From an uncultured candidatus Porisulfidus sp. (lineage in GTDB: Bacteria; Pseudomonadota; Gammaproteobacteria; Poriferisulfidales; Poriferisulfidaceae), in NCBI GenBank assembly GCA_965116025.1, contig OZ220480.1:193335-257334 (forward strand): 64,000 nucleotides of DNA, given 5' to 3'. The notes beneath the pieces are model-generated. The model worked only from the letters and a program-made list of their open reading frames with translations. It was not told the origin of the DNA and did no database searches. Numbering within the stretch: position 1 is the first letter of the stretch; every line of letters starts with the position of its first letter. The position numbers and the translations under genes are program-made. Of the stretch, positions 1,690 to 54,084 are shown piece by piece.

Positions 1690-1757
1690 CCTACAGTCTC
1701 GCGCGGATCAAGTGAGGAATTATAGCAAGTCGGGCGTGGTCGGGAGTGCCATTTCTA

Positions 1758-3527
1758 ATGCCATTGGCGCTATTGGCGGCGGGGCTTTCGGCGCTGGCGC
1801 TGCCGGCGCGGGCGGAGACGATCAACCTGTACGGGTGGCAGAACCACTCGTGGGAGTTCGTGGACATCGACGGCGGGCGCAGCTTCGACCGCATCCAGTC
1901 GAACGCCGGGAACATCGGCTTCTCGGCCAGCGTGGACACTGGCATGAGCGACATAAAGGTGAACCTGCAGTGCGAGCAGTTCACCTACTACAACCACTTC
2001 GCCGGCGGCACCGGCTGGTGCAACCGCAACTCCAAGATCGGGCTGGCGCACCCGATGGCCGGCGAGATCATGTTCGCCACCTGGCTGCTGCCGTACAACG
2101 AGGGCGTGGCCCAGTGGGTGGACCCGTTCTACGACGCCGGGGCCGACTCGCACACCAGCATCATGGGCTCGGTCGGGGCCAACACCATCTTCTACAACAC
2201 CGGCGACTTCGACCAGCAGGCGTCGGCGTCGGGGCCGGCGACCGGCTTCTCCGGGGCGGAGTTCAACTACGCCGGGGCCGGCTACGACACCGGCTTCAAC
2301 CGGCGCCAGGAGAACATCATCCAGTACTGGTCGCCGAACTGGAACGGCTTCGTGTTCCGCTTCGCCTGGACGGCCGGCAACCGCGACGAGACGAACGCGC
2401 CGACCGGCGGCGGGAAGATCGACCCGGTGATCCGCTCGAGCAGCCTGGCGTACACGAACGGCCCGCTGTGGCTGGCGGCGACCTGGCAGGACCACGAGGA
2501 CTGGACGGCGGTCTCGGTCGGGGAGATGGAGAGCTCGGACGCGGAGAGCTTCCGCCTGGCCGGGCGCTACATCATGGACCTGGGCGACGGCATGAGCGTT
2601 CAACTGTCGGCCATGTGGGAAACGCTGGAGTACGAGTTCCACGGCGTGACCACCATCGATAAGGCCATGAAGGCGTTCGGGTATGGGAATTTCATGGATT
2701 CTTACGAGTTGAGCGTCACGGATGCGGAGATAATGAAGAAGAAGACCCAAGGGCTGGCGCTCGATATCTTGACGGATGAGAAGGGCATGCTGATTCCTAT
2801 GGGGGACACGGCGCGGGGTTTATATGGGGAGCAGGTTAAAACCACTATGAGCCTGTACACCGCATACATGGGTGAGATAGACACCGTAACCTCCACCAGC
2901 TTGAACTTGGTCGCTGAACGCAGAACTGTGGTCGACTGGAACGACTATTACAAAGAGGCGCCTGATAATCCTGTTAAAGTCAGCACTACCGCCATGCGAA
3001 CCGGGTCCCAAAATGTCATGCTTTTCACGACCATGCTGAGCACGACTACGCTGAACGCGGCTAAAACGGCCGCGGAGGAGGCCAAAATGAAGGATATGGA
3101 TGATCGAACGGACGAGGACAAATCGAAAATCAAGTTCTATGACGATCTGGTCTCGATGGCGAAATCCCGAGCCCGCGACGAGAAGAGCATGGGCGGGAAC
3201 GTGAAGATCGAGCGAGACGCCTGGATGGTGTCGGGCAAGATCAAGTTCGGCGGCCCGCTGGACTTCCGCTTCTCCTACATGGACGCCGACGACCTGGAGC
3301 TGTCATGCAACTACTGCATGGGAGACTGGGACGAGACGGCGGCGGACGCCTGGAACGTCGGGGTGTTCTACACGATGCCGGCGGGAACCGAGCTGCGGCT
3401 GACGTATTCGGAGGTCAACAACGACGACAACGGGACCTACGGGCAGGGCATCTCGGGGACCGGCTTGGGAACGCCGGGGGCGGAGATCGAGATGTTCGCG
3501 CTGGGGATCGTGCACTGGTTCGACTGA
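1758..3527 (+). CDS. porin-like secreted/outer-membrane protein, family copy 1 (N-form A, cassette type X)
   Basis: ATG at 1758 with GGGAG 11 bp upstream (the ORF track starts at a GTG at 1746). Signal peptide MPLALLAAGLSALALPARA followed by ETINLYGWQNHSWEFVDIDGG. The conserved N and C frameworks are shared with 7 paralogs, with alternating hydrophobic beta-strand-like patterns and a terminal ...EIEMFALGIVHWFD. Confidence 0.8.
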   Translation: MPLALLAAGLSALALPARAETINLYGWQNHSWEFVDIDGGRSFDRIQSNAGNIGFSASVDTGMSDIKVNLQCEQFTYYNHFAGGTGWCNRNSKIGLAHPMAGEIMFATWLLPYNEGVAQWVDPFYDAGADSHTSIMGSVGANTIFYNTGDFDQQASASGPATGFSGAEFNYAGAGYDTGFNRRQENIIQYWSPNWNGFVFRFAWTAGNRDETNAPTGGGKIDPVIRSSSLAYTNGPLWLAATWQDHEDWTAVSVGEMESSDAESFRLAGRYIMDLGDGMSVQLSAMWETLEYEFHGVTTIDKAMKAFGYGNFMDSYELSVTDAEIMKKKTQGLALDILTDEKGMLIPMGDTARGLYGEQVKTTMSLYTAYMGEIDTVTSTSLNLVAERRTVVDWNDYYKEAPDNPVKVSTTAMRTGSQNVMLFTTMLSTTTLNAAKTAAEEAKMKDMDDRTDEDKSKIKFYDDLVSMAKSRARDEKSMGGNVKIERDAWMVSGKIKFGGPLDFRFSYMDADDLELSCNYCMGDWDETAADAWNVGVFYTMPAGTELRLTYSEVNNDDNGTYGQGISGTGLGTPGAEIEMFALGIVHWFD

Positions 3528-3549
3528 CCCGTTGGGTCATCCACGACAG

Positions 3550-3582
3550 CGAGCGGGCGCCTTCGGGCGCCCGCTTTCTTTG
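3550..3582 (+). terminator. rho-independent terminator of copy 1
   Basis: AGCGGGCGCC-ttcg-GGCGCCCGCT followed by TTCTTT, 23 bp after the stop codon. Confidence 0.7.
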
Positions 3583-4062
3583 AGGATCAGGATTCTCGAC
3601 TTGATCCGCCGCCACGAGGCAAATCGTGATGATGGCGGATCGCGAGAGCCAGATGTAACCGCTTCGGATGGTCGCGCGGGCGCTTGGAGTGATGCCACGA
3701 AAGCTGTGCGGGGCGTTCCGGCTTCAGGCTTTCATCAAAGATCGGAAACTCGATAGTTCCAGAGATCGATAGGCTGACCCCTGTTCGTCGCCACGCGGGA
3801 AGTCTGCTTGATCGAGGACGACGGGCCTCTCACCCTCTTTCCTCCCCGAGGCGCGCGCCGATCCACGCCCTCCGATTTCTCACCGCGTCTCTTATATCCA
3901 AGCGATATCAAGAATTCTCAGTCCACCGCACCACCTTGTGGTGGATCGGGTCATCCCGATCCGGTCTGCCGCGAGCGGATCGCCTTCCGGGCGCGTCGGA
4001 ACCAGGCCTCGCGCCGCCGGCGCTGGCCCGACTCTCGATCTGGTCGCGAAGCGCCGACCTCA

Positions 4063-4095
4063 AAGAAAGCGGGCGCCCGAAGGCGCCCGCTCGCT
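4063..4095 (-). terminator. rho-independent terminator of copy 2
   Basis: Mirror image of the same GC hairpin plus T-tract on the minus strand, immediately 3' of the convergent paralog. Confidence 0.7.
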
Positions 4096-4115
4096 GTCGT
4101 GGATGACCCAACGGG

Positions 4116-5947
4116 TCAGTCGAACCAGTGCACGATCCCCAGCGCGAACATCTCGATCTCCGCCCCCGGCGTCCCCAGGCCGGTCCCCGAGATGCCCTGC
4201 CCGTAGGTCCCGTTGTCGTCGTTGTTGACTTCCGAATACGTCAGCCGCAACTCGGTTCCCGCCGGCATCGTGTAGAACACCCCGACGTTCCAGGCGTCCG
4301 CCGCCGTCTCGTCCCAGTCCCCCATGCAGTAGTTGCACGACAGCTCCAGGTCGTCGGCGTCCATATAGGAGAAGCGGAAGTCCAGCGGGCCGCCGAACTT
4401 GATCTTGCCCGACACCATCCAGGCGTCCCGCTCGATCTTCACGTTGGAGCTCATGGTTTGCTTCAGCTTGGCGTCGGCGTATTCCGTCATCTTCTTCTCG
4501 TACTCCATCACCTTCTCGTTGTGCGGCTCCAGGGCGTACTCCCTCGCCTTCGCCACGTATTCCTTGTAGAAGTCCATGTCCGTCTTGTCATCCAGATACT
4601 TCGTGGTCGATGTCTTCAACTTGTTCAGGATCGTGGTGCTCAGCTTGGTAGTCAGGGCCGCTTTGTACGCCGTGTTCAATCCCCCAGTGGTGAACCTGTA
4701 GTAGCGATCGATCGCTGGGATGTTCTGATAATTACTCCAACTTTGATTATCGAAGTATTTTTTATAGGACCCCCCGTATCACTAGGACTTAAGTCGGTGG
4801 GCCATACGGCCAGACCGGCCATGTTGGTCCTCCATTTCCCGTTCTCGTCCGTCAGCAGCTCGACCGCGAGCCCCCCGGTCATCTGCGCCTCTATCAGCGG
4901 CTTCAGCTCCGCTTCGGTGGGCATCGTCGGCTTCGTCGGCATGTCCATGTCGGCGGGGGCCATGACCTTCATGTCGTAGTAGGTTTTCTCGAAATGGTTG
5001 ATGTTGGGATCGGTACCGCCGTACCCGAACGCCTTCATGGCCTTGTTGATGTCGGTCACGCCGTGGAACTCGTACTCCAAAGTCTCCCACATGGCCGACA
5101 GTTGAACGCTCATGCCGTCGCCCAGGTCCATGATGTAGCGCCCGGCCAGGCGGAAGCTCTCCGCGTCCGAGCTCTCCATCTCCCCGACCGAGACCGCCGT
5201 CCAGTCCTCGTGGTCCTGCCAGGTCGCCGCCAGCCACAGCGGGCCGTTCGTGTACGCCAGGCTGCTCGAGCGGATCACCGGGTCGATCTTCCCGCCGCCG
5301 GTCGGCGCCATCGTCTCGTCGCGGTTCCCGGCCGTCCAGGCGAAGCGGAACACGAAGCCGTTCCAGTTCGGCGACCAGTACTGGATGATGTTCTCCTGGC
5401 GCCGGTTGAAGCCGGTGTCGTAGCCGGCCCCGGCGTAGTTGAACTCCGCCCCGGAGAAGCCGGTCGCCGGCCCCGACGCCGACGCCTGCTGGTCGAAGTC
5501 GCCGGTGTTGTAGAAGATGGTGTTGGCTCCGACCGAGCCCATGATGCTGGTGTGCGAGTCGGCTCCGGCGTCGTAGAACGGGTCCACCCACTGGGCCACG
5601 CCCTCGTTGTACGGCAGCAGCCAGGTGGCGAACATGATCTCGCCGGCCATCGGGTGCGCCAGCCCGATCTTGGAGTTGCGGTTGCACCAGCCGGTGCCGC
5701 CGGCGAAGTGGTTGTAGTAGGTGAACTGCTCGCACTGCAGGTTCACCTTTATGTCGCTCATGCCGGTGTCCACGCTGGCCGAGAAGCCGATGTTCCCGGC
5801 GTTCGACTGGATGCGGTCGAAGCTGCGCCCGCCGTCGATGTCCACGAACTCCCACGAGTGGTTCTGCCACCCGTACAGGTTGATCGTCTCCGCCCGCGCC
5901 GGCAGCGCCAGCGCCGAAAGCCCCGCCGCCAATAGCGCCAATGGCAT
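4116..5947 (-). pseudogene. porin-like family copy 2 (N-form A, cassette type Y), frameshifted
   Basis: ATG at 5947 (MPLALLAAG...). The reading frame breaks near 4680-4800, giving two overlapping ORFs (4676..5947 and 4116..4679). Both halves are homologous to the intact copy 4. Low-complexity odd sequence sits at 4740-4800. Confidence 0.6.
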
Positions 5948-6171
5948 TAGAAATGGTATCGTAGGGCATCAGCAAATCGAAAAACTCTCCACGGAATATC
6001 TGGCCAAAACGTCGCTTCTCCCATATATTGTTCGGTGAAATTCCGCCTCCCAAACTCTCGATTTCCGTTCCCTAGATTCCGCATTGAATTGCGGCACCAT
6101 TTCCTTTGTGGGAAAATAAGACGCTATGGGACGGGATTATCAATGTTGGCAAGGAAACCGGGAGAGGGTTG

Positions 6172-7395
6172 ATGAGAGGAACTAGAGTCCCACCGCGAAT
6201 CGAGCGATTAAAGGTGCAGAACTTCCGCGCGTTGCGCGATGTGGAGCTAAACCTTACGCCGCTCACCGTGTTACTTGGCCCAAATGGCAGTGGAAAGTCC
6301 ACGATTTTTGATGTCTTCGCCTTTTTGGCAGAGTGTTTTGAGAGCGGGCTACGTCGAGCGTGGGAAAAACGTGGCAAAGCTCGGGAACTTAGGTCGCGGG
6401 GCGGAGAGGGTCCTATATTGATTGAAATCGCATATCGCGAAAAACCGCGCACACCCTTGATCACGTATCACCTTCAAGTGGACGAGAAAAATGGCCGACC
6501 TCGCGTGGTCTGCGAATGGCTCCGATGGAAGCGGGGGCGCTACGGGCAACCGTTCAAATTTCTCGATTACGCGGACGGAGTTGGGCAGGTCATCTCGGGT
6601 GAGATGCCTGACGCGCGGGCTGAGCGGATAGAGATCCCTTTGAGTTCTCCTGATACGCTCGCGGTTAACGCGCTTGGCCAACTGGCGGAAAATTCTCGTG
6701 TCGTCGAGCTGAGAGATTTCATCATGGGATGGCATGTGTCCTACTTGTCAGCCGAGGATACGAGAGGACAACCGGAAGCGGGGCCACAGGAACGCCTGAG
6801 CAGGACAGGAGACAATCTCGCTAACGTGATTCAATATCTGTCCGAAGAACATCCAGAACTTTTGGAGTCCATTCTTGGCAGCATCAGAGAAAGGATCCCG
6901 AAAGCCCAGAGCGTGGTGGCGGACCAGATGCCGGACGGAAGGTTGTTGCTGAAAATCAAGGATGCCCCATTCGCTGACCCCGTCATGGCGCGCTTCGCGT
7001 CCGATGGCACACTTAAAGTGCTCGCCTATCTAGTCTTGTTGCGTGATCCAACCCCTCCTCCTTTTATTGGCATTGAGGAGCCGGAGAACTTCCTGCATCC
7101 ACGCCTGCTTCACGGTTTGGCGGAAGAATGCCGAACCTCCTCCGAGGCCACACAGGTCCTCGTGACCACCCATTCTCCTTTTTTCCTTGATGCGCTTCGT
7201 CCCATGGAAGTTCGGGTGTTGTGGCGCGACGAATTCGGTTACACGAGATGCGACCCCTTGGATGAGAACAAAAAAATTTTGGCGTTTATGGAAGCGGGCG
7301 CCCAGCTTGGAGATCTTTGGATGGAAGGACATTTCGGGGTTGGAGATCCGCTGACTTCGGAAGGAATGGCCATGCCGGGAAGAGGCGGGAGCTGA
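6172..7395 (+). CDS. OLD/ABC-type (AAA_21-like) ATPase
   Basis: Walker [10 protein letters not shown] near the N-terminus. Walker B/D-loop [13 protein letters not shown] and H-loop LVTTHSPFF near the C-terminus. ATG at 6172 is preceded by GGGAGAGG (the ORF track begins at 6106). Confidence 0.7.
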
Positions 7396-7396
7396 C

Positions 7397-8014
7397 ATGC
7401 CCGCGTCTCATTTGGAGTTCCTCGTGGAGGAGCGTTCCATGGAAGCGTTTCTCGTTGCTTGGCTACCAAAGTTTCTGCCGGAGGGCTGCACTTTCAAGGT
7501 CTATGCGCACCAAGGCAAAAACGCGTTGTTGAGAAAAATCGAAGATCGACTCGGAGCATATAAGGCATGGATGCCAAACGAATGTCGTATCGTGGTGGTA
7601 GTGGACCGCGACCGGGATGCGTGCGATGAACTCAAGCTCAAGATGGAGCGATTCTGTGAGAAAGCGGGATTGCGGTCGAGACGGGCCGCTGATGGTTCGG
7701 ACTGGCAAGTGGTGACGCGGATAGCCATAGAAGAGCTTGAAGCATGGTATTTTGGGGACTGGCAGGCGGTGTTGGCCGCTTTTCCGGGTGTCGCGGAGAA
7801 TATCCCAGACCGCGCGGCTTACCGGGATCCAGATGCGATTCAAGGTGGAACTTGGGAGGCATTCGAGCGGATTCTCCAGAAACATGGATATTTCGCGCAA
7901 GGACTGGCAAAAGCGCAGGCCGCTAGCGAGATTGGCCGACATATCGACCCTGTTCGCAATCGGTCCCGCAGTTTTATCGTTTTTCGCGATGCCATCGTCG
8001 ATGCCACCACATGA
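7397..8014 (+). CDS. DUF4276-like (Toprim-like) partner protein of the ATPase
   Basis: Start lies 1 bp after the ATPase stop (translationally coupled). The acidic motifs EFLVEERSMEAF, VVVVDRDRD and IEELEAWYF match my recollection of the DUF4276 consensus; this is not confirmed by a search. Confidence 0.55.
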   Translation: MPASHLEFLVEERSMEAFLVAWLPKFLPEGCTFKVYAHQGKNALLRKIEDRLGAYKAWMPNECRIVVVVDRDRDACDELKLKMERFCEKAGLRSRRAADGSDWQVVTRIAIEELEAWYFGDWQAVLAAFPGVAENIPDRAAYRDPDAIQGGTWEAFERILQKHGYFAQGLAKAQAASEIGRHIDPVRNRSRSFIVFRDAIVDATT

Positions 8015-22729: not shown

Positions 22730-23336
22730 TCCGAGCCGGGAATCTCGAGCCCGGCATCCTGAAGCAACTCGATCAGGCGGATCATCGGCAACCCAATCAG
22801 AGCGGTCGGGTCGTCGCCTATGATGTGATCCGTGAGGCTGGCTCCCAGTCCCTCGGATCTGAAACTCGCGGTGCAGTTGTATGGCCTCTCGCTTCGCAGG
22901 TAACGCTTGATTACGTCCTCGCTCAATTCCTTGTAACGTACCGTGTGGCGGGACTCGGAGTAGCGGCATACGCCGGCGCTGGTGTCCAGAAGGCATAGAC
23001 CGGTCAGGAAAGCCACCTCCTGCCCGCTGAGCTGGCGTAGTTGCTCCACGGCCGCGCCATGCGTTCCCGGCTTGCCCAGCAACTTCCCGCTTAGCTCCGC
23101 GCACTGGTCGCTACTGATTATCAGGGAATCCGGGTGTCGGACCCCAACCTCCGCGGCCTTCTCATGGGCGAGCCGTCGCACGTAGTCCGAAACCCTCTCG
23201 CCTAGCCGCGGGGTCTCGTCGATATCGGGCGCGTCCACCGTGAAGTCTAGGCGCAAGCGTTCAAGAAGTTCTCGACGATAAGGAGAGCTGCTACCGAGCA
23301 CGAGAGGACGCGTCGCCGCCATTTCGATCATCATGG
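22726..23336 (-). CDS. maf: Maf-family nucleoside triphosphate pyrophosphatase
   Basis: LVLGSSSPYRRELLERLRLDFTVDAPDIDE...SLIISSDQ. The likely start is the MIEMAATRPLVLGSSS Met (the ORF track extends to 23382). Confidence 0.8.
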
Positions 23337-25010
23337 CGAGAGACCGACAGGATTTTCGTTGGACAGCGGAGCTCGGTTCCATCGCGCGTCTCGCTTCCGG
23401 TCTGGATTCGCGATTACGTGCAAGTAGGAAGTGGCGCGGCTAAACCCGACGTAAGCGAATCGGTCTGGACTCTCTCCAGAAGGTCGGTCGAGCACCACGA
23501 CCACCGCGAGGGATTCCAGTCCCTTAAAACGAGCGATCGTCTCGGTCACGATGCCATCGGCATCATACTGGCAAAAAACAGTGTCGGATACATCCATATC
23601 GAGGAGGCGATTCCGGAGAGACGGCGTTTCGCAAAGCACGACAATATCCTGCCGTTCAAAGTTCTCGGACAATAGGCGGTCAACGACTCGGCGTACGATC
23701 TTTTCTGGTTTCTGGGAAGGCTGGAGGTCCGTCCAGCGGGGTTTCGGACCGGATGCCCCGGAAGCGAGCGTGGTCGCCCCAGTGGTAGCCGCGACTCGCT
23801 CGGCGATCGGTTGCGCGTTTCGGCAGTTCATGGACAAATCGATCATCACGAAACCTTCGGGCGTGTCCCAGTCCCTTTCCCACAGTTTTTGGTCCTCATC
23901 CGCCAAAATCAGGAACGGAGTGTCCGAACCCCTTTCGCAAAGCGTCTGGAGCGCCTCGAGCCAAAGGCTGGAAAAGTCTTGGCCCTCATCAACGATGATC
24001 GCGTCGAATCGCGCGCCCGCCCGCTCCGCCGCGTCAACGAGAATATAAGGCACTTCCTTCTCCCACCATTCCGCTTGAGGCGCGTCGGGAACCTCGACTC
24101 CGGCCTGGCGCGCCGTGGACATGCATAAGGCATGAAACGTGTGCGCCGCAACCCCCTCCAAGGAGGGGTCGTCCCCGAGTTTTTGACCAAGCAGTTTGTT
24201 GTAGCAGGTCAGCAGCACTCGATGACCCGACGCGTGAAGTTGCCTCGCTTTCTCGCAAGCGAGAATCGTTTTTCCTGTGCCAGCCCCACCGAACACGACG
24301 ACTCGCCGATTCCGGCGCATCATGTCAAGAACCCGAATCTGCTCCTCGGTCAAATTCACAAGGCGGACCTTGGCATCGTGCGCCTCATCAGACAGGGTTC
24401 GCCGAACCTGGACGGTAGGCGCCAAGGCGTTAGCGATATCTTGGACTTGACGGAAGGATAAATCCGCGGAAAGCCGCCAATGAAGAACTACATCGCGAAT
24501 GGCGGAAGGCGCGTCCGTCAAATGGCCCGCGTCCAACGCGATCGCTTTCGGGGCATCTGGACCCAACAACGGCAATTCCCGCAAGTCAGGGAACCAAACG
24601 GCATGGCACGTCGGAACGCGACGCTCGAATCGCTCCGCTATGAACCGACCCAGAGCGGCCTTGGACGCTACCGCCTGCTCAAACGGGTTTTTGATGTCGT
24701 GGACTTCCTCGTTTCGGTCCCGGGACTTCCAACGTCCGGCTTCGACGTGGACTCCTCCGCCCTTCACCTCAAGCACGACGATCCCATGCGACCGATGAAT
24801 CAGGACAAAATCCGCTTCTCCGTCGCCGGTCCGTCGCCCGCGCGGGCCCTGCCAAGCGACGGAGTGAAGCACCGTCCAATCATCGGATAGCGTAGACAGC
24901 GCGTCGTAGACCTTCCGTTCCGAATCGGCATCGACTCCGACTGTGGGGCAGGCGAATGTGATGGCCATGACCGTGGCGTTTCCGTTCGACTCCGGCTCAC
25001 CCGAAGTCAA
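23331..25010 (-). CDS. NERD-domain protein fused to a UvrD/DUF2075-like P-loop helicase
   Basis: N-terminal NERD-like region (SERKVYDALSTLSDDWTVLHSV...GEADFVLIHRSHGIVVLEVKGG) and a Walker A motif VVVFGGAGTGKTILACEKARQL. The likely start is MAITFACP at ~24965. Confidence 0.6.
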   Translation of the reverse strand: MTSGEPESNGNATVMAITFACPTVGVDADSERKVYDALSTLSDDWTVLHSVAWQGPRGRRTGDGEADFVLIHRSHGIVVLEVKGGGVHVEAGRWKSRDRNEEVHDIKNPFEQAVASKAALGRFIAERFERRVPTCHAVWFPDLRELPLLGPDAPKAIALDAGHLTDAPSAIRDVVLHWRLSADLSFRQVQDIANALAPTVQVRRTLSDEAHDAKVRLVNLTEEQIRVLDMMRRNRRVVVFGGAGTGKTILACEKARQLHASGHRVLLTCYNKLLGQKLGDDPSLEGVAAHTFHALCMSTARQAGVEVPDAPQAEWWEKEVPYILVDAAERAGARFDAIIVDEGQDFSSLWLEALQTLCERGSDTPFLILADEDQKLWERDWDTPEGFVMIDLSMNCRNAQPIAERVAATTGATTLASGASGPKPRWTDLQPSQKPEKIVRRVVDRLLSENFERQDIVVLCETPSLRNRLLDMDVSDTVFCQYDADGIVTETIARFKGLESLAVVVVLDRPSGESPDRFAYVGFSRATSYLHVIANPDRKRDARWNRAPLSNENPVGLSP

Positions 25011-25438: not shown

Positions 25439-27268
25439 TTGGCCCGAGCACGGGATTCCGTAGCAATCTCATTTCTAATCCCATTGACGCTGCTGGCGGC
25501 GTCGCTGTCGGCGCTGTCGCTGTCGGCGCGGGCGGAGACGATCAACCTGTACGGGTGGCAGAACCACTCGTGGGAGTTCGTGGACATCGACGGCGGGCGC
25601 AGCTTCGACCGCATTCAGTCGAACGCCGGGAACATCGGCTTCTCGGCCAGCGTGGACACCGGCATGAGCGACATAAAGGTGAACCTGCAGTGCGAGCAGT
25701 TCACCTACTACAACCACTTCGCCGGCGGCACCGGCTGGTGCAACCGCAACTCCAAGATCGGGCTGGCGCATCCGATGGCCGGCGAGATCATGTTCGCCAC
25801 CTGGCTGCTGCCGTACAACGAGGGCGTGGCCCAATGGGTGGACCCGTTCTACGACGCCGGGGCCGACTCGCACACCAGCATCATGGGCTCGGTCGGGGCC
25901 AACACCATCTTCTACAACACCGGCGACTTCGACCAGCAGGCGTCGGCGTCCAATCCTGGCACTGGCTTCTCCGGCAACGAGTTCAACTACGCCGGGGGCG
26001 GCTACGACACCGGCTTCAACCGGCGCCAGGAGAACATCATCCAGTACTGGTCGCCGAACTGGAACGGCTTCGTGTTCCGCTTCGCCTGGACGGCCGGCAA
26101 TCGCGACGAGACCCACGCGCTCAAGGACGCCAAAGGTAATTACGCGGCCGGCCCCAAGATCGACCCGGTGATCCGCTCGAGCAGCCTGGCGTACACGAAC
26201 GGCCCGCTGTGGCTGGCGGCGACCTGGCAGGACCACGAGGACTGGACGGCGGTCTCGGTCGGGGAGATGGAGAGCTCGGACGCGGAGAGCTTCCGTCTGG
26301 CCGGGCGCTACATCATGGACCTGGGCGACGGCATGAGCGTTCAATTGTCCGCCATGTGGGAGACCTTGGAGTACGAGTTCCACGGCGTGACCACCATCGA
26401 TAAGGCCATGAAGGCGTTCGGGTATGGGAATTTCATGGATTCTTACGAGTTGAGCGTCACGGATGCGGAGATAATGAAGAAGAAGACCCAAGGGCTGGCG
26501 CTCGATATCTTGACGGATGAGAAGGGCATGCTGATTCCTATGGGGGACACGGCGCGGGGTTTATATGGGGAGCAGGTTAAAACCACTATGAGCCTGTACA
26601 CCGCATACATGGGTGAGATAGACACCGTAACCTCCACCAGCTTGAACTTGGTCGCTGAACGCAGAACTGTGGTCGACTGGAACGACTATTACAAAGAGGC
26701 GCCTGATAATCCTGTTAAAGTCAGCACTACCGCCATGCGAACCGGGTCCCAAAATGTCATGCTTTTCACGACCATGCTGAGCACGACTACGCTGAACGCG
26801 GCCAAAACGGCCGCGGAGGAGGCCAAAAAGAAGGATATGGATGATCGAACGGGCGAGGACAAATCGAAAATCAAGTTCTATGACGACCTGGTCTCGATGG
26901 CGAAATCCCGAGCCCGCGACGAGAAGAGCATGGGCGGGAACGTGAAGATCGAGCGAGACGCCTGGATGGTGTCGGGCAAGATCAAGTTCGGCGGCCCGCT
27001 GGACTTCCGCTTCTCCTACATGGACGCCGACGACCTGGAACTGTCGTGCAACTACTGCATGGGAGACTGGGACGAGACGGCGGCGGACGCCTGGAACGTC
27101 GGGGTGTTCTACACGATGCCGGCGGGGACCGAGCTGCGGCTGACGTATTCGGAAGTCAACAACGACGACAACGGGACCTACGGGCAGGGCATCTCGGGGA
27201 CTGGCTTGGGAGTGGCTGGCGCGGAGATCGAGATGTTCGCGCTGGGGATCGTGCACTGGTTCGACTGA
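25439..27268 (+). CDS. porin-like family copy 3 (N-form B, cassette type X)
   Basis: Near-identical framework to the other copies. There is no ATG, so the ORF track uses TTG at 25439 (MARARDSVAISFLIPLTLLAASLSALSLSARA then ETINLY). Its cassette is almost identical to copy 1. Confidence 0.7.
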   Translation: MARARDSVAISFLIPLTLLAASLSALSLSARAETINLYGWQNHSWEFVDIDGGRSFDRIQSNAGNIGFSASVDTGMSDIKVNLQCEQFTYYNHFAGGTGWCNRNSKIGLAHPMAGEIMFATWLLPYNEGVAQWVDPFYDAGADSHTSIMGSVGANTIFYNTGDFDQQASASNPGTGFSGNEFNYAGGGYDTGFNRRQENIIQYWSPNWNGFVFRFAWTAGNRDETHALKDAKGNYAAGPKIDPVIRSSSLAYTNGPLWLAATWQDHEDWTAVSVGEMESSDAESFRLAGRYIMDLGDGMSVQLSAMWETLEYEFHGVTTIDKAMKAFGYGNFMDSYELSVTDAEIMKKKTQGLALDILTDEKGMLIPMGDTARGLYGEQVKTTMSLYTAYMGEIDTVTSTSLNLVAERRTVVDWNDYYKEAPDNPVKVSTTAMRTGSQNVMLFTTMLSTTTLNAAKTAAEEAKKKDMDDRTGEDKSKIKFYDDLVSMAKSRARDEKSMGGNVKIERDAWMVSGKIKFGGPLDFRFSYMDADDLELSCNYCMGDWDETAADAWNVGVFYTMPAGTELRLTYSEVNNDDNGTYGQGISGTGLGVAGAEIEMFALGIVHWFD

Positions 27269-27287
27269 CCCTTCGTCATCCACGAAG

Positions 27288-27318
27288 CGAGCGGGCGCCC
27301 TCGGGCGCCCGCTTTCTT
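27288..27318 (+). terminator. rho-independent terminator of copy 3
   Basis: GCGGGCGCCC-tcg-GGCGCCCGC followed by TTTCTT. Confidence 0.7.
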
Positions 27319-27843
27319 GTGGGCTCAGGAATTCCTGACAGGTCCGCCACCAGGCGGGACCAAGACGATGGCCAGCCTCGAGACCGAGACGGACCCGCTT
27401 CGGACTACCCCCCGAATGCTTGGAGTGGCTCCACGGAAGCCGTGAGGGAAACTCCGGTTTCAGGCTTTCATCAAAGACTGTGCACCCGATATTCTTGAGA
27501 AAGGAGTTCCGGGGACCGATGGACTTGTGAAAGCCTTGGTTCACCCACCGCGCGAGCGAGACGCGTCGCGCGAAGTCCACTCGATCAAGGGCGATGGCCC
27601 TCTCGCTCTTTTCCTCCCCGAGGCGCGCGCTGACCCGAACCCTCCGGTTTCCCGCCGCCTCGCCTGGATTCCAGCTATACCGAGAATTCTCGGTCCTCCA
27701 TCACTTTGTCGTGGATTGGGTCATCCCGATCTCGCCCGCCGCGAGCGAATGGCCTTCCGAGCGTGTGGCGGGCGCGGCGAAGCCAGGTCTCGCGCCGCCG
27801 GCGCTGGCCCGACTCCCGATCTGGCCGCGAAACGCCGGATCCA

Positions 27844-27876
27844 AAGAAAGCGGGCGCCCGAAGGCGCCCGCTCGCT
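27844..27876 (-). terminator. rho-independent terminator of copy 4
   Basis: Mirror GC hairpin plus T-tract on the minus strand. Confidence 0.7.
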
Positions 27877-27894
27877 GTCGTGAATGACGAAGGG

Positions 27895-29830
27895 TCAGTC
27901 GAACCAGTGCACGATCCCCAGCGCGAACATCTCGATCTCCGCCCCCGGCGTCCCCAGGCCAGTCCCCGAGATGCCCTGCCCGTAGGTCCCGTTGTCGTCG
28001 TTGTTGACTTCCGAATACGTCAGCCGCAGCTCGGTCCCCGCCGGCATCGTGTAGAACACCCCGACGTTCCAGGCGTCCGCCGCCGTCTCGTCCCAGTCTC
28101 CCATGCAGTAGTTGCATGACAGCTCCAGGTCGTCGGCGTCCATGTAGGAGAAGCGGAAGTCCAGCGGGCCGCCGAACTTGATCTTGCCCGACACCATCCA
28201 GGCGTCCCGCTCGATCTTCACGCTCGACCCCATGGTCTGCTCCAGCTTGGCGGCAGCATATTTTTCCTTGCCCTCCTCGTATGCCGTCATGGCATCGTCG
28301 TAGGCTTTCTTAGCCTCGTTGTACTTCTCGTCATATGGCCTCATGGCCTCCTCCTTGACCTTCGCCACGTATTCCTTGTACCAGTCAGCGCCTGTTTTGT
28401 CGCCCGAATATTTCGTGGTCGATGTCTTTAAAGTATTCAGTGTCGTGGAGCTCAGTTTGGTGGTAACGAGCGTTCGCAGCGCCTGATCCGTTCCTATAGT
28501 GTTAAGTCTATAGTATTGAACCAGCTTTCTCCGATGTACGAGGCCAGAACCCCATTGCGCTAGCTCTGTGTGGAAGCTGCCTTGGAGAGTACTTAATTCC
28601 TTGGGCACCGCGATATTACTGAGGCTTGATGTCGCGCTCTTGCTATCCACTGGAATGGTCCGCCAGTACCCGCTCTCGTCAAGCAACATCTCCATCGCAA
28701 GCCCTTGGGTCATCTGCGCGTCGATCTCGGCTTGGGTGGCCATCCCTCGTTCAGGCTTCGTCGTGGTCGGCTTCGTCGGCATGTCCATGTCGGCGGGGGC
28801 CATGACCTTCATGTCGTAGTAGGTCTTCTCGAAATGGTTGATGTTGGGATCGGTGCCGCCGTACCCGAACGCCTTCATGGCCTTGTTAATGTCGGTCACG
28901 CCGTGGAACTCGTACTCCAAAGTCTCCCACATGGCCGACAATTGAACGCTCATGCCGTCGCCCAGGTCCATGATGTAGCGCCCGGCCAGACGGAAGCTCT
29001 CCGCGTCCGAGCTCTCCATCTCCCCGACCGAGACCGCCGTCCAGTCCTCGTGGTCCTGCCAGGTCGCCGCCAGCCACAGCGGGCCGTTCGTGTACGCCAG
29101 GCTGCTCGAGCGGATCACCGGGTCGATCTTGGGGCCGGCCGCGTACTTGCCCTCGGCGTTCTTGAGCGCGTGGGTCTCGTCGCGATTGCCGGCCGTCCAG
29201 GCGAAGCGGAACACGAAGCCGTTCCAGTTCGGCGACCAGTACTGGATGATGTTCTCCTGGCGCCGGTTGAAGCCGGTGTCGTAGCCGCCCCCGGCGTAGT
29301 TGAACTCGTTGCCGGAGAAGCCAGTGCCAGGATTGGACGCCGACGCCTGCTGGTCGAAGTCGCCGGTGTTGTAGAAGATGGTGTTGGCCCCGACCGAGCC
29401 CATGATGCTGGTGTGCGAGTCGGCCCCGGCGTCGTAGAACGGGTCCACCCACTGGGCCACGCCCTCGTTGTACGGCAGCAGCCAGGTGGCGAACATGATC
29501 TCGCCGGCCATCGGGTGCGCCAGCCCGATCTTGGAGTTGCGGTTGCACCAGCCGGTGCCGCCGGCGAAGTGGTTGTAGTAGGTGAACTGCTCGCACTGCA
29601 GGTTCACCTTTATGTCGCTCATGCCGGTGTCCACGCTGGCCGAGAAGCCGATGTTCCCGGCGTTCGACTGGATGCGGTCGAAGCTGCGCCCGCCGTCGAT
29701 GTCCACGAACTCCCACGAGTGGTTCTGCCACCCGTACAGGTTGATCGTCTCCGCCCGCGCCGACAGCGACAGCGCCGACAGCGACGCCGCCAGCAGCGTC
29801 AATGGGATTAGAAATGGTATCTCCTCGAAA
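27895..29830 (-). CDS. porin-like family copy 4 (N-form B, cassette type Y')
   Basis: Full-length framework with an intact cassette homologous to the two halves of copy 2. There is no in-frame ATG near the signal peptide (...EEIPFLIPLTLLAAS). The ORF-track extension to 29973 reads into the IS4 junction. Confidence 0.7.
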
Positions 29831-29975
29831 TCCCAATCCCACCGAGAACCATGATGACCATGCGCCCCAAGACTCCGCCCAAGAGACCGTGGAAACCGAA
29901 ATCCACCGATCCCCGGAGCATGGGAAACTGAGACGAAACCATGGCTGATTCTGAAACTTCGGGATGACTCCAACT

Positions 29976-31473: not shown

Positions 31474-33033
31474 TTATTTGACTGGCACGGGAGACGTGAA
31501 CACGAATCGAGCCAAGCCATCGCCATAGCGGACCGCGCACCGTGATGGCAAAGACTGCAACATGTTGGTGTCCACAAGGTAGCGCTCTGACTGACGCAGG
31601 CCACGAATGTTTCGCTCGCGCTCGGCGAGGACCGCGTTGGCCTCGAAATCGCGCATCTCGTCATCGATTAGGATGCTGCCGCTCATGCGGGCCAGCCATA
31701 ATGCCGTGTCTGGATCGTTGACCCGGTAGGCGAATTTCAGGCCGCAGTTCTCGGTTACTGAAGATATCACCTGTTCCGGGTCCAGATCGTCGGGAACGTT
31801 GCGCAAGTCGTTGACCGTCTGATGCGCCAGCACTAGGTGCGCCCGTTTGTCCCGGATAGAGGCGAGCGCCTCCAGTAGCGGAGCGCTGATCAGATAGCGG
31901 AGCTCATCCAGAAACATGCAGACTTGGCGGGATCTTTCGCGGGCGCGGCGCTCGCAACTCTGGATCACCGACAGCACGAACATCTTCTGAAGCTTGAGAA
32001 TACGGGAGTGGCGTGGGGAGCCGAGCACGTAGATCACCGCGCCCTCCTCAATCGCTCGCGCGACATCCAACCCCTCCTCGGCCCGAGCCGCGGGGGTCGC
32101 CGCGATCTCTTCCATATCATCAATGAACTTCGTGGCCTTGCGCGCAACGGTCTCGCTTCGGAACGTCGCCAAAAGATTCGGCAGGGACTCGCCGTCATGC
32201 AACCGCGCGAATTCTCGTGCGGCGCGACGATCATTGAGACGATAGAAATCCGCCTCGGAGCCTCGCTCTCCGAGGCCGAAGCTTGCCACCAGGAGCTCCT
32301 CAATCTCATCGGAACTCTTTCCGCGCAGGGGATTCCATCGCGCCTCCTCGCCCATGAGATCCAAGCGATAGAAGGGTTTGCCGGCCTCGCGGGCCGCACG
32401 CTCCAAGACTCGTGGAGCGTACTCGTCACGCTTAGGGTCCACCACCACGACCGCCTCGCCTTGCCGCGCGGCCTGGGTTAGCAGAATTCCTGCCAAGACA
32501 CCTTTTCCACTTCCGGTCATCCCGATAATATCGATATGGGACCGCCTCCATAGATTCTGATCCACGTGCACGGGATCGCCGTTCGGATCCAGCCCTAAAA
32601 ATAGTCGGTCATCAGACTGGCAGAACGGCAAGGGGTCATACTCGTTCCGGGCCTTCGGCAGGAAGTCTCCGATGTCGCGGATATCGGTCCGCGCGTCCCG
32701 GGCCAGTGGGCTACGTTTCATCCATCGCGCGCGCCACCGCTCGAGCGCGCCGCTTCCTCGACGCGCCATGAGGATGGCCAGCGCGGTGCCAATGAGAAAC
32801 TGTCCCATGAAGAGCGGGACATGCCAGCCCGGATGGTTTGTCCCTATCGCATGCGGCACCAGCACCAAGAGCGCCGTAAAGACGGACAAGGTCAGCATCA
32901 GCAAGCCAAGCGCCCTCGGCGCTTGTAGCAGACCAAGCGTCATGAGAATGCCGCCGGGCAACCCAAGCCAAGGCCAACTCCATCCGTAGAACATGTTTTC
33001 GGACAGGCCGCCGACGATCTCCCAAAACCCCAT
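31474..33033 (-). CDS. TraD/VirD4/TrwB-like type IV coupling ATPase (orphan)
   Basis: N-terminal transmembrane segments, Walker [15 protein letters not shown], Walker [12 protein letters not shown], and LAHQTVNDL. No other conjugation genes lie nearby. Confidence 0.6.
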
Positions 33034-33057
33034 GCGAGCGTCCTATTGGGGTCGGGC

Positions 33058-33147
33058 TGGCGGAGAGGGAGGGATTCGAACCCCCGGAACCTTTCGATTC
33101 AACGGTTTTCAAGACCGCCGCATTCGACCACTCTGCCACCTCTCCGC
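33058..33147 (-). tRNA. tRNA-Ser (anticodon UGA)
   Basis: The reverse complement reads GGAGAGGTGGCAGAGTGGTCGAATGC...CGGTCTTGAAAACCG...GGGGGTTCGAATCCCTCCCTCTCCGCCA. It has a long variable arm, an anticodon loop CTTGAAA, and a 3' CCA. Confidence 0.9.
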
Positions 33148-45948: not shown

Positions 45949-45969
45949 CCGGTTGGGTCACCCACGATA

Positions 45970-46002
45970 GCGAGCGGGCGCCTTCGGGCGCCCGCTTTCT
46001 TT
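45970..46002 (+). terminator. rho-independent terminator of copy 5
   Basis: AGCGGGCGCC-ttcg-GGCGCCCGCT followed by TTCTTT. Confidence 0.7.
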
Positions 46003-46487
46003 GAGGATCAAGATTCTCGACTTGATCCGCCGCCACGAGGCAAATCGTGATGATGGCGGATCGCGAGAGCCAGATGTAACTGCTTCGGATGGTCGCGCGG
46101 ACGCTTGGAGTGATGCCACGAAAGCCGTGCGGGGCGATCCGGCTTCAGGCTTTCATCAAGGATCGGAAACTCGATAGTTCCAGGGATCGATAGGCTGACC
46201 CCTGTTCGTCGCCGCGCGGGAAGTCTGCTTGATCGAGGACGACAAACCTCTCACTCCGTTTCTTCCTCGCGGCGCGCGCTAACCCGAACCCTCCGATTTC
46301 CCGCCGCCTCGCTTGGATTCCAGCGATGTCAAGAATTCTTGGTCCACCACCTTGTCGTGGATCGGGTCATCCCGATCTGGCCTGCCGCGAGCGGATCGCC
46401 TTCCGGGTGCGTGGGGGCGCGTCGGAACCAGGCCTCACGCCGCCAGCGCTGGACCCACTCTCGATCCAACCGGAAAACACCAGTCTC

Positions 46488-46520
46488 AAAAGAAAGCGGG
46501 CGCCCGAAGGCGCCCGCTCT
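46488..46520 (-). terminator. rho-independent terminator of copy 6
   Basis: Mirror GC hairpin plus T-tract on the minus strand. Confidence 0.7.
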
Positions 46521-46541
46521 CGTCGTGAATGATCCAACGGA

Positions 46542-48449: not shown

Positions 48450-49181
48450 TTTTTGACTCCTGAAAAATTAGTCTCCGCAAGGCAATCACTCCTCACGAAC
48501 AATGTGGTGAAATTACCACATTTCGGCGTGGATTATATAGCCTAGAGATGATGTCAATCGGCCATGCTGTTGTTTTTTAGAAACAAGTTTGGTTTAGGTA
48601 AGGTGGATGTCGATATCAGCATCTTTCTAATTTAAAAACAACAGGATTTCTTTACCTACTGCATTGCCTCGATAGGCGTATAGATATCCGAAACTGATAA
48701 TGTTTTCTAGCTTTAGGAGATTTTCTGGAGTCATAGCGAGATGATCACTTCCCATGGATATGGTAGTAAAACGACCACATTTCTGCACGGTTATAGAACC
48801 TCTGGACACAGGCAAACGTCATGCCTATTGTTAGATTTTAGTGACAGGAGCGAATGAGAAAACCAGAAGCTGGTTTCAGTTTTCTATTGTTCTAAAAACA
48901 ACAACATATCTTTCCACCAAAATTTCTATCGGATAGGATATAGTGAACGTATCAAGTTCGCCGTTATCAACTCGGCAACTGATTAGCGAATTGGCCTACA
49001 AAAATGAACGGAGCGGCGACGAAAATGCGTTCAAGCCAATTCGATTTTGCAACTGGCTTGGCACGGGTTTTCATGGTCCAAATATAGTAATGAATCCAAT
49101 TATCAATAGTGACCGTCGCTTGCTCCCGCCTGAAATCTCGTTATCAGAGCTCGGAAGAGCGACGCTCAAACTTAATCCTTA

Positions 49182-53486: not shown

Positions 53487-53508
53487 CCCGTTGGGTCACT
53501 CACGGCAA

Positions 53509-53540
53509 TGAGCGGGCGCCTTCGGGCGCCCGCTTTCTTA
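53509..53540 (+). terminator. rho-independent terminator of copy 7
   Basis: GCGGGCGCC-ttcg-GGCGCCCGC followed by TTTCTT. Confidence 0.7.
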
Positions 53541-54030
53541 TGGGCTCAGGAATTCCTGACAGGTCCGCCACCAGGCGGGACCAAGACGATGGCCAGCCTC
53601 GAGACCGAGACGGACCCGCTTCGGGCGGTCGCGCAGGCGCTTGGAGTGATGCCACGAAAGCCGTGCGGGACGCTCCGGCTTCAGGCTTTCATCAAGGATC
53701 GGAAACTCGATAGTTCCAGGGATCGATAGGCTGACCCCTGTTCGTCGCCGCGCGGGAAGTCTGCTTGATCAAGGACGACGGACCTCTCACTCCCTTTCCT
53801 CCTCGAGACGCGCGCCGATCCACGCCCTCCGATTTCTCACCGCGTCTCTTAGATCCAAGCGATATCAAGAATTCTCGGTCCACCGCACCACCTTGTGGTG
53901 GATCGGGTCATCCCGATCCGGTCTGCCGCGAGCGAATGGCCTTCCGAGCGTGTGGCGGGCGCGTCGAAGCCAGGCCTCGCGTCCGCCGGCGCTGGCCCGA
54001 CTCCCGATCTGGCCGCGAAACGCCGGACCC

Positions 54031-54063
54031 AAAGAAAGCGGGCGCCCGAAGGCGCCCGCTCGC
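54031..54063 (-). terminator. rho-independent terminator of copy 8
   Basis: Mirror GC hairpin plus T-tract. Confidence 0.7.
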
Positions 54064-54084
54064 TATCGTGGATGACCCAACGGG

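What the first reader, a model, noticed from the sequence alone, without database searches (positions are those of the whole stretch)
3528..4115. Conserved ~600-bp spacer with facing terminators and conserved hairpins between every convergent pair
All four pairs are separated by the same element (3528-4115, 27269-27894, 45949-46541, 53487-54084).
- Identical GC-rich terminators (GCGGGCGCC-ttcg-GGCGCCCGC plus T-tract) sit on both strands.
- An ~450-bp conserved core contains a perfect 8-bp stem GGATCGGG-tcat-CCCGATCC. The spacer 2 variant GGATTGGG...CCCGATCT still pairs, through G-U wobbles.
- An adjacent CCACC/GGTGG hairpin is present.
- In spacers 2 and 4 there is a 12-bp perfect palindrome CAGGAATTCCTG followed by GGTCCGCC-acca-GGCGGGACC.
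- The small ORFs inside are not conserved in frame, so a non-coding role is more likely: an sRNA, a protein-binding site, or a recombination or inversion site for the flanking genes.
- The spacer is itself a mosaic of modules, like the genes.
Basis: seen in the sequence. Interest (0 to 1): 0.7.

Follow-up and report, generated by a model that had tools for sequence, protein, structure and literature searches.

The report
Filler DNA between mirrored porin genes
The repeated ~600-bp element is the non-coding centre of four mirror-image porin gene pairs: its two ends are real transcription terminators, and its middle looks like slowly decaying filler (partly an old copy of the porin gene's tail), not a new RNA gene or recombination switch.

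Summary
Eight paralogous Porin_4 genes form four convergent pairs, and each pair is separated by a 588-626 bp spacer. The four spacers align in the same orientation at 77-90% identity.

The functional reading is not supported:
- The spacer ends are the porins' own 3' UTRs, each with an 11-bp UUCG-loop hairpin (-25.6 kcal/mol) and a U-tract. That stem occurs only behind the eight porins in the window.
- The core diverges by 10-23% between copies. Third codon positions of the adjacent constant gene parts diverge by 5.6%.
- The core is a patchwork of two roughly 70%-identical variants per segment, which fits patchy gene conversion.
- About 115 nt of the core is a decayed direct copy of the porin 3' end, stop codon and terminator.
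- No conserved ORF, Pfam or Rfam match, or strand-specific covariation was found. The 8-bp hairpin has a chance probability of about 0.09.
- The core is absent from relatives. Their equivalent spacers (476-905 bp) hold unrelated DNA, including MazE-like and XRE-type small genes.

Best reading: terminators plus a length-providing, sequence-indifferent centre of a large inverted repeat. An RNA or DNA-site function is not excluded.

The parts
1746..3527 (+). Porin 1A (Porin_4), left arm of palindromic pair 1
   Evidence: ORF. Pfam PF13609, E 4e-19. Arm identity 99% over 938 nt with 1B (I6).
3528..3606 (+). 3' UTR of porin 1A. It still belongs to the inverted repeat with 4037-4115.
   Evidence: I23: arms 3181-3606 and 4037-4462, 94% complementary.
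3551..3581 (+). Intrinsic terminator of porin 1A: 11-bp stem 3551-3561/3566-3576, UUCG loop, U-tract UUUCUUU 3575-3581
   Evidence: -25.6 kcal/mol, z -4.5, 0 of 200 shuffles fold as well; the stem is found only behind porins. The strict scan did not list it, because two U residues are absorbed into the stem.
3607..3643 (+). Short post-terminator hairpin segment (GATCCGCC..GGCGGATC). It is replaced in spacers 2 and 4 by the CAGGAATTCCTG + GGTCCGCC-acca-GGCGGGACC variant.
   Evidence: columns 41-120: sp1=sp3 and sp2=sp4 at 97-100%, about 66% between the two groups. (3585-3650 folds at -30.3 kcal/mol, z -3.8).
3644..3760 (+). Decayed direct copy of the porin 3' end, stop codon and terminator region (parent 3483-3607). 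Equivalents: 27380-27500, 46065-46181, 53601-53717.
   Evidence: local alignment z 5.5-6.4, 0 of 200-300 shuffles reach the score; 58-66% identity over about 129 aligned columns.
3761..4036 (.). Core of unknown origin. Equivalents: 27511-27817, 46182-46462, 53718-54005.
   Evidence: No similarity to porin units, the rest of the window, relatives, Pfam in six frames or Rfam.
3929..3962 (+). Twin hairpins: CACCAC-ctt-GTGGTG (3929-3943) and GGATCGGG-tcat-CCCGATCC (3943-3962)
   Evidence: A perfect 8-bp stem arises by chance with P about 0.09 per core. The first hairpin is lost in spacers 2 and 3.
4037..4115 (-). 3' UTR of porin 1B with its intrinsic terminator (stem 4067-4092, U-tract 4062-4068 on the - strand)
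   Evidence: -25.6 kcal/mol.
4116..5956 (-). Porin 1B, right arm of pair 1. The reading frame is broken near 4676-4679, beside a G5 run.
27269..27894 (+). Spacer 2 (between porins 2A and 2B). It is the most diverged copy and carries 14-, 6- and 17-nt insertions.
   Evidence: 77-85% identity to the other spacers.
45949..46541 (+). Spacer 3 (between porins 3A and 3B)
53487..54084 (+). Spacer 4 (between porins 4A and 4B)

Best explanation
Each spacer is the asymmetric, non-coding centre of a large inverted repeat formed by two convergent paralogous porin genes.

- Ends (shown): the outer ~55-80 bp on each side belong to the porin genes. They carry strong Rho-independent terminators that stop the two convergent transcripts before they meet.
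- Core (shown): the inner ~430 bp has no recognisable gene or RNA family. About 115 nt of it is a decayed duplicate of the porin 3' end and terminator, left by an earlier rearrangement.
- Similarity (shown and inferred): the four spacers resemble each other because the whole unit (porin, spacer, porin) was multiplied. Short tracts have since been exchanged between copies by gene conversion. This is the same process that keeps the constant gene parts 95-100% identical, but it acts more rarely on the spacer.
- Role (inferred): any selected role of the core is length-dependent, not sequence-dependent. It keeps the ~1.9-kb arms apart, so the repeat is a spaced inverted repeat and not a fragile perfect palindrome. 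It also gives convergent RNA polymerases room to terminate.
For: - Architecture and terminators.
- Divergence: the core differs by 10-23% between copies. Third codon positions of the adjacent constant gene regions differ by 5.6%, and positions 1 and 2 by 1.8%. The core is therefore no better conserved than nearly neutral sites next to it.
- Mosaic: each segment exists in two variants, 95-100% identical within a variant and 66-75% between variants, reassorted among the four spacers.
- Independent histories: variable regions of 1A and 2A are 99% identical, but their adjacent spacers are only 78% identical. Spacer and gene have separate conversion histories.
- Relic of the porin 3' end.
- No coding or RNA signal.
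- Relatives: in the nearest available relatives the pair architecture is kept, but the spacer core is unrelated sequence. L001 has 806 bp, L002 has 905 and 537 bp, L003 has 726 bp and L008 has 476 bp. Some of these spacers hold MazE-like or XRE small genes. All ten spacers seen are at least 476 bp.
- Established knowledge: fragility of inverted repeats falls with the distance and divergence between the arms (abstract of PMC10164571). SbcCD processes palindromes in E. coli (PMC3315005, PMC4245961).
Against: - Some blocks stay invariant between the ~70%-identical variants, for example TTCAGGCTTTCATCAA and GGGTCATCCCGATC.
- The three substitutions in the 8-bp hairpin all keep pairing as G-U on the + strand.
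- Spacer 2 folds better than shuffles on the + strand (z -3.4).
- Both variants of the post-terminator segment keep a hairpin on the same 5' arm.
- The 276-nt remainder of the core has no identified origin.
- The stabilising or insulating role of spacer length is inferred, not tested.
- Gene-conversion rates may differ between gene and spacer, so the divergence comparison is not a clean neutrality test.
Confidence: 0.62

Rival explanations
1. The core encodes, or forms part of, a structured + strand RNA. This could be a 3'-UTR extension or read-through product of the A porin, or an independent sRNA. It would act on porin expression, for example as an antisense RNA to the 3' end of the B porin or as an RNA-stability element.
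For: - Hairpin 3943-3962 is kept in all four copies, and its substitutions are compatible only with + strand G-U pairs.
- Spacer 2 on the + strand has z -3.4.
- Hairpin-rich segments follow the left terminator in both variants.
- Invariant blocks lie within diverged segments.
Against: - No Rfam match, even at E <= 1, apart from the terminator stems.
- Spacer 1 is not more structured than shuffles on either strand.
- RNAalifold finds as many 'compensatory' pairs on the minus strand (9 of 136) as on the plus strand (6 of 116), and the covariation terms are small.
- The core contains no terminator-like end.
- Indels of 5-17 nt separate the copies.
- The sequence is absent from relatives.
- There are only about two independent sequence variants, so covariation has almost no power.
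Confidence: 0.15
2. The core is a DNA site for a recombinase or a regulator. It would be an inversion or cassette-exchange site, possibly served by the conserved IS110-family recombinase gene next to pairs 3 and 4, or an operator for a dimeric DNA-binding protein.
For: - Perfect or near-perfect DNA palindromes are present: the 8-4-8 GGATCGGG-tcat-CCCGATCC, and the 12-bp CAGGAATTCCTG in spacers 2 and 4.
- Genes and spacers are recombination mosaics.
- An IS110-type gene (49182-50357) sits between porin pairs here and at the same place in four other genomes or contigs.
- In a relative, one porin (P0007) is joined to different spacers and partner porins in two contigs of one sample.
Against: - All four spacers have the same orientation.
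- The palindromes are degenerate or absent in some copies.
- No serine or tyrosine invertase gene was seen among the flanking ORFs scanned against Pfam.
- The core has no similarity to the IS110 region.
- No RNA family was detected in the IS110 flanks.
- Ordinary homologous recombination between 95-100% identical kilobase arms explains the mosaics without a special site.
Confidence: 0.08
3. The unassigned part of the core is the decayed remnant of a small cargo gene, of the antitoxin-like or HTH type that occupies the same position in the related MAG. It is now functionless. This reading is compatible with the best explanation and concerns only the origin of the filler.
For: - Relatives carry a 97-aa MazE/AbrB-like gene, a frameshifted 61-aa copy of it, and a 97-aa XRE HTH gene inside equivalent spacers.
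- The minus-strand translation of the hairpin region reads ..LAADRIGMTRSTTRW.., which to the eye resembles an XRE helix-turn-helix.
- There is a weak tblastn match of a Phd/YefM antitoxin C-terminus to the relic region (E 0.003 in a 2.4-kb database) and a weak tblastx match to the L002 HTH gene region (E 0.004).
Against: - Pfam finds nothing in any frame, even at E <= 10.
- Smith-Waterman alignment against the relative's HTH protein is no better than shuffles (P 0.3-0.7).
- tblastn with the MazE-like and HTH proteins gives nothing.
- Differences between copies in that frame are mostly amino-acid changes and frameshifts.
- The Phd/YefM match falls in the segment better explained as the porin 3' relic.
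Confidence: 0.1

Closest known systems
Rho-independent (intrinsic) terminators between convergent genes
   Same: A GC-rich 11-bp stem, a UUCG tetraloop and a U-tract lie 24 nt after each stop codon, one for each of the two convergent genes.
   Different: This covers only the outer ~55 bp at each end. It does not account for the ~430-bp core.
Large palindromes with a unique central spacer whose arms are homogenised by arm-to-arm gene conversion (for example human Y-chromosome palindromes; interrupted palindromes studied in E. coli, PMC3315005)
   Same: - Two ~1.9-kb arms lie in inverted orientation and are 94-99% identical in their constant parts.
- The centre is non-duplicated and asymmetric.
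- Evolution is concerted.
   Different: - There are four paralogous palindromes that also exchange sequence with each other.
- Each arm carries a hypervariable ~800-nt segment that escapes homogenisation.
- The spacer itself is shared between palindromes.
REP/BIME-type repetitive extragenic palindromes
   Same: They are repeated, hairpin-forming, intergenic sequences at gene 3' ends.
   Different: - REPs are 20-40 nt and are scattered behind many unrelated genes.
- Here the stem occurs only behind the porin paralogs, and the core occurs only between porin pairs within the 64 kb.
Outer-membrane protein multigene families diversified by gene conversion (for example Anaplasma msp2, Neisseria opa/pil; reviewed in PMC4534519)
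   Same: Constant flanks and a hypervariable centre recur in many paralogs, with mosaic exchange between copies.
   Different: - All eight copies here look like full-length genes with their own terminators, not one expression site plus silent cassettes.
- They are arranged as convergent pairs.
- This comparison concerns the genes, not the spacer.
Invertible phase-variation switches (fim, hin, shufflons)
   Same: A DNA segment is bracketed by inverted repeats.
   Different: - No dedicated invertase gene was seen next to the spacers.
- The inverted repeats are the whole genes.
- Inverting the spacer alone would change no coding sequence or promoter.
- Only one orientation was observed.

Membership tests
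Intrinsic (Rho-independent) terminator | Stable GC-rich stem-loop immediately downstream of a stop codon | tested here: met
   An 11-bp stem with a UUCG loop at -25.6 kcal/mol; 0 of 200 shuffles fold as well. It starts 24 nt after the stop and is present at all 8 porin 3' ends.
Intrinsic (Rho-independent) terminator | U-rich tract directly after the stem | tested here: met
   UUUCUUU follows the GC stem. The stricter consensus scan did not call it, because two U residues pair into the stem.
Intrinsic (Rho-independent) terminator | Transcripts actually end there | not testable with these tools
   This needs Term-seq or 3'-end mapping.
REP/BIME-like repetitive extragenic palindrome | Many copies dispersed behind unrelated genes | tested here: not met
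   Within the 64-kb window the stem occurs only behind porins and the core occurs only between porin pairs. The whole genome could not be searched, because the source genome is not in genome contigs.
Small regulatory RNA gene | Match to a described RNA family | tested here: not met
   Rfam 15 at gathering and at E <= 1 matched only the terminator stems, weakly.
Small regulatory RNA gene | Own promoter and terminator | tested here: inconclusive
   No sigma-70-like or terminator-like site lies inside the cores. The scan also finds no promoter upstream of the porin genes themselves, so it has no positive control in this organism.
Small regulatory RNA gene | Structure supported by strand-specific covariation | tested here: not met
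   6 of 116 pairs on the + strand and 9 of 136 on the - strand have double changes, and the covariation terms are -0.69 and -0.81. There are only about 2 independent variants, so power is very low.
Small regulatory RNA gene | Conservation in related genomes | tested here: not met
   No similarity to the spacers or any other part of 67 related loci. No hits came from the metagenome, viral or plasmid searches.
Invertible DNA switch | Adjacent site-specific invertase and both orientations observable | tested here: not met
   The flanking ORFs scanned against Pfam include no serine or tyrosine recombinase. An IS110-type gene lies 2.6-3.1 kb from spacers 3 and 4 only. All four spacers are in one orientation. 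Read-level heterogeneity is not testable here.
Spaced large inverted repeat (palindromic gene duplication) | Two long arms in inverted orientation with high identity around a unique centre | tested here: met
   I6 has 938 nt at 99%, I23 has 426 nt at 94%, and I4, I9, I12, I16, I22 are equivalent for the other pairs. The core has no inverted partner.
Type II antitoxin / XRE small gene (as in relatives' spacers) | Intact ORF with a recognisable domain | tested here: not met
   No conserved ORF, no Pfam hit in six frames, and no significant similarity to the relatives' MazE-like or HTH proteins.

The most novel reading that the evidence does not exclude
The spacer core is a cis-acting control element of a porin-diversification system. 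It would be either a + strand RNA structure that sets which member of a convergent pair is expressed, or a DNA site through which a recombinase targets cassette exchange or inversion between the eight hypervariable porin genes. One candidate recombinase is the IS110-family enzyme conserved between porin pairs in five genomes or contigs.
Probability: 0.07. Interest if true: 0.75.

Novelty: new member of a known kind. Interest (0 to 1): 0.25.

Why it matters
The spacer itself matters little. It is a clean example of intergenic DNA that looks conserved only because it sits inside a multiplied, gene-converting unit. Repeat-based conservation within one genome should not be read as constraint.

The surrounding system is more interesting. 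An uncultured, small-genome (~2 Mb) gammaproteobacterium keeps eight porins with near-identical barrels and hypervariable ~250-aa inserts as four spaced palindromes. Defence-like genes and a positionally conserved IS110-type recombinase gene lie beside them. This points to surface-receptor diversification, against phage or a host.

If spacer length is what keeps such palindromes stable, that would be a testable design rule for inverted gene duplications in bacteria.

Tried and rejected
- Hidden small protein. ORF lists for all four spacers, stop-to-stop frames and Pfam on 14 frames at E <= 10 showed nothing conserved or recognisable. A candidate 32-aa ORF behind a GGAGG motif loses its start codon in spacer 2.
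- Decayed HTH gene. The minus-strand peptide LAADRIGMTRSTTRW looked XRE-like to the eye and coincides with the 8-bp hairpin. Pfam finds nothing, and Smith-Waterman against the relative's HTH protein gives P = 0.3-0.7. I treat it as unsupported.
- Phd/YefM relic. A weak tblastn hit (E 0.003) lies in the segment that is significantly similar to the porin 3' end. I treat it as compositional or chance.
- A second degenerate terminator copy at 3945-4000. I saw this by eye, but it was not significant in the chunked alignment test.
- Searches for the core elsewhere:
  - The genome contigs pattern scan gave only a chance 22-mer in Photobacterium. The source genome is evidently not in that collection.
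  - The metagenome-contig scan gave 0 and the viral-contig scan gave 0.
  - blastn against plasmids gave 0.
  - A protein search with a spacer-derived ORF gave 0, not even a self hit, so it is uninformative.
  - Exact look-ups of the window's own porins were not on record, so the rest of the genome could not be fetched.
- Link to the IS110 element. The core has no similarity to the 48.4-51.6 kb region, and no RNA family was found there.
- Global RNA structure. The z-scores are inconsistent between copies and strands.

Full report
**What is there.** The window is about 62% G+C. It carries eight paralogous genes of 590-690 codons that match Pfam Porin_4. They form four convergent pairs:
- Pair 1: 1746-3527(+) and 4116-5956(-)
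- Pair 2: 25439-27268(+) and 27895-29973(-)
- Pair 3: 44062-45948(+) and 46542-48449(-)
- Pair 4: 51591-53486(+) and 54085-55998(-)

Each pair is a large inverted repeat. For pair 1, 938 nt of the 5' parts are 99% complementary, and 426 nt spanning the 3' parts plus 79 nt beyond the stop are 94% complementary (I6 and I23).

The four spacers align co-linearly in one orientation, with 85% mean column identity.

**The ends are the porins' terminators.** GCGGGCGCC-N4-GGCGCCCGC occurs eight times in the 64 kb, once behind each porin and nowhere else. As RNA it forms an 11-bp stem with a UUCG loop at -25.6 kcal/mol, which no shuffle reached, and UUUCUUU follows it. The left copy is oriented to terminate the + strand gene and the right copy the - strand gene. 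The same stem sits behind the porins of a related metagenome-assembled genome. These ends lie inside the inverted repeat, so they belong to the genes and not to a separate element.

**The core is not under detectable constraint.**
- Gene constant parts. Across the eight genes the constant 5' (~840 nt) and 3' (~340 nt) parts are 94-100% identical. The central ~800 nt is hypervariable at 38-55% mean identity. In the constant parts, pairwise differences are 1.8% at codon positions 1 and 2, and 5.6% at position 3.
- Spacers. The spacers differ by 10-23%. That is two to four times more than the nearly neutral sites next to them.
- Mosaic. Divergence is patchy in a specific way. Every ~40-80-nt segment exists in two versions, 95-100% identical within a version and 66-75% identical between versions. 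The versions are reassorted among the four spacers. For example, sp1=sp3 and sp2=sp4 in columns 41-120, sp1=sp4 and sp2=sp3 in columns 361-400, and sp2=sp4 in columns 481-600. This is the signature of short gene-conversion tracts.
- Separate histories. Spacer history is uncoupled from gene history. The variable regions of 1A and 2A are 99% identical, but their adjacent spacers are only 78% identical.

**Part of the core has an identifiable origin.** Positions 3644-3760, and the equivalent segment in the other three spacers, are a decayed direct copy of 3483-3607. That parent segment holds the last ~45 nt of the porin coding sequence, the stop codon, the terminator and the next ~30 nt. Identity is 58-66% over about 129 aligned columns. 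Local alignment scores lie 5.5-6.4 SD above shuffles, and none of 200-300 shuffles reached them. The remaining 276 nt (3761-4036) match nothing:
- not the porin units including 300 nt upstream;
- not the rest of the window;
- not 67 related loci by blastn or tblastx;
- not plasmids;
- not Pfam in any frame;
- not Rfam.

**Tests of the RNA idea.**
- Spacer 1 is no more structured than dinucleotide shuffles on either strand (z -0.88 and -0.67). Spacer 2 scores z -3.4 on the + strand and -1.8 on the - strand, partly because of its private palindromic insertions.
- RNAalifold on the + strand gives 6 of 116 pairs with double changes and a covariation term of -0.69. The reverse strand gives 9 of 136 and -0.81. 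The apparent covariation is what the optimiser finds on either strand.
- A perfect stem of at least 8 bp with a 3-8-nt loop arises in about 9% of shuffles of a core.
- The only directional hint is weak. The three substitutions in that stem are all C-to-T changes that keep G-U pairs on the + strand. In spacer 2 the hairpin folds only on that strand (-13.3 against -8.1 kcal/mol).
- No sigma-70-like promoter or terminator-like site lies inside the cores. The same scan finds no promoter in front of the porin genes, so this negative carries little weight.

**Comparison with relatives.**
- Distribution of the porins. A protein search found 631 relatives (E <= 0.001), the best of them in uncultured Gammaproteobacteria with ~1.5-2.0-Mb genomes. 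The source contig is 2,018,984 bp and holds seven of the listed proteins, which matches the seven intact genes in the window.
- The nearest available genome. This is a MAG from ENA sample ERZ25068685, with porins about 70% identical. It has the same convergent pairs at syntenic positions, next to carAB-greA, argG/RNase T and an IS110-type gene. Its spacers are 537-905 bp and share only the terminator with the window's spacers.
- Content of its spacers. They contain a 97-aa MazE/AbrB-like gene, a truncated 61-aa copy of it, and a 97-aa XRE-type HTH gene.
- Other genomes. Another genome (L008) has a convergent pair with a 476-bp spacer. More distant relatives have single, tandem or divergent porins.
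- Conclusion. The architecture recurs with spacers of 476-905 bp in all ten cases seen, while the spacer sequence is replaceable.

**Most likely mechanism.**
- Shown: the ends are porin terminators. The core is non-coding, less conserved than adjacent synonymous sites, mosaic, partly a dead copy of the porin 3' end, and lineage-specific.
- Inferred: the four spacers are similar through common descent of a multiplied porin-spacer-porin unit, plus occasional short conversion tracts.
- Inferred: selection on the core, if any, acts on its presence and length. A few hundred base pairs of asymmetric DNA turn a ~4-kb perfect palindrome into a spaced inverted repeat. This is expected to lower hairpin or cruciform formation and SbcCD-type cleavage (PMC3315005, PMC4245961, PMC10164571). 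The spacing also separates two convergent, presumably strongly expressed genes.
- I put this explanation at about 0.6. The rivals are a + strand RNA element (about 0.15), a protein or recombinase site (about 0.08) and a decayed small cargo gene as the source of the unassigned part (about 0.1, compatible with the main reading).

**Comparison with known systems.**
- The ends are ordinary intrinsic terminators.
- The whole resembles large palindromes with unique centres whose arms are homogenised by gene conversion.
- It is not REP-like within the window.
- It lacks the defining features of an invertible switch. No invertase gene was seen among the flanking ORFs scanned, only one orientation is observed, and inverting the spacer would have no coding or promoter consequence.
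- It fails the tests available for an sRNA gene.
- I class it as a new member of a known kind and score its interest low.

**Limits.**
- The complete source genome could not be retrieved. 'Nowhere else' therefore holds only for this 64 kb and for the collections scanned.
- Only about two independent sequence variants exist, so covariation tests have almost no power.
- Transcription, protein binding and inversion cannot be judged from an assembly.

Noticed in passing
window 48450-51590; also L002/L003/L004 3451-5752, L006 4438-6786, L007 5031-7378: An IS110-family gene (DEDD_Tnp_IS110 + Transposase_20, 49182-50357) and a ~300-aa ORF with no Pfam match sit between the divergently oriented porins of pairs 3 and 4, in a low-GC stretch (0.51-0.54). 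The same 'porin(-), ~300 aa, IS110, porin(+)' module is present in four other genomes or contigs whose porins are only 60-70% identical. This suggests a long-resident, possibly domesticated recombinase. No Rfam hit was found in its flanks.
   Followed up: partly
window 4660-4690 (porin 1B, - strand): Porin 1B is split into two ORFs (4116-4679 and 4676-5947) by a frameshift beside a G5 run (CTGGGGGATT) in its hypervariable part. It could be a pseudogene, a phase-variable tract or a homopolymer error of a long-read assembly.
   Followed up: partly
window 1746-3527 vs 25439-27268, and all eight porins: The porin constant regions are 94-100% identical at the DNA level across all eight copies, and the central ~800 nt is 38-55% identical on average. 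The variable regions of 1A and 2A are 99% identical even though the spacers next to them are only 78% identical. Across 28 homologues from many genomes the N-terminal ~310 and C-terminal ~105 residues are nearly invariant.
   Followed up: partly
L002 vs L003 (both ENA ERZ25068685), from position 7939 onward: The same 645-aa porin (P0007) with identical upstream genes is followed in a 38.7-kb, 9x contig by an XRE gene, a 586-aa porin and cbbQ. In a 1.05-Mb, 24x contig it is followed by a different spacer, a 627-aa porin and rimP-nusA-infB. Either the population carries rearrangements at porin pairs, or the assembly breaks at them.
   Followed up: no
L001 12207-12392, L002 834-1127 and 8032-8325: In the related MAG the centres of the porin palindromes hold orphan antitoxin-like or regulator genes (MazE/AbrB-like and XRE HTH) with no adjacent toxin gene called. 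One of them is a truncated copy.
   Followed up: partly
window 6106-8014, 23331-25010, 31474-33145: Defence- or mobile-looking genes lie directly beside the porin pairs. These are AAA_21 ATPase + DUF4276 (6106-8014), a NERD-domain helicase (23331-25010), and a TrwB/TraG-like coupling protein next to tRNA-Ser (31474-33145). In L001 a BrxC/BrxD-like ATPase, a TerB-domain protein, a DEAD helicase and DUF4365 flank the orthologous pair.
   Followed up: no
window 61565-61762: Five tandem 33-nt repeats (an 11-aa unit, roughly EMHREIGGLRQ) lie inside an ORF of 152 aa (61307-61765, - strand) that has no Pfam match.
   Followed up: no
window 59720-60601: A DDE_Tnp_1 transposase gene lies near the right end of the window. 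It is a second IS type in the region.
   Followed up: no
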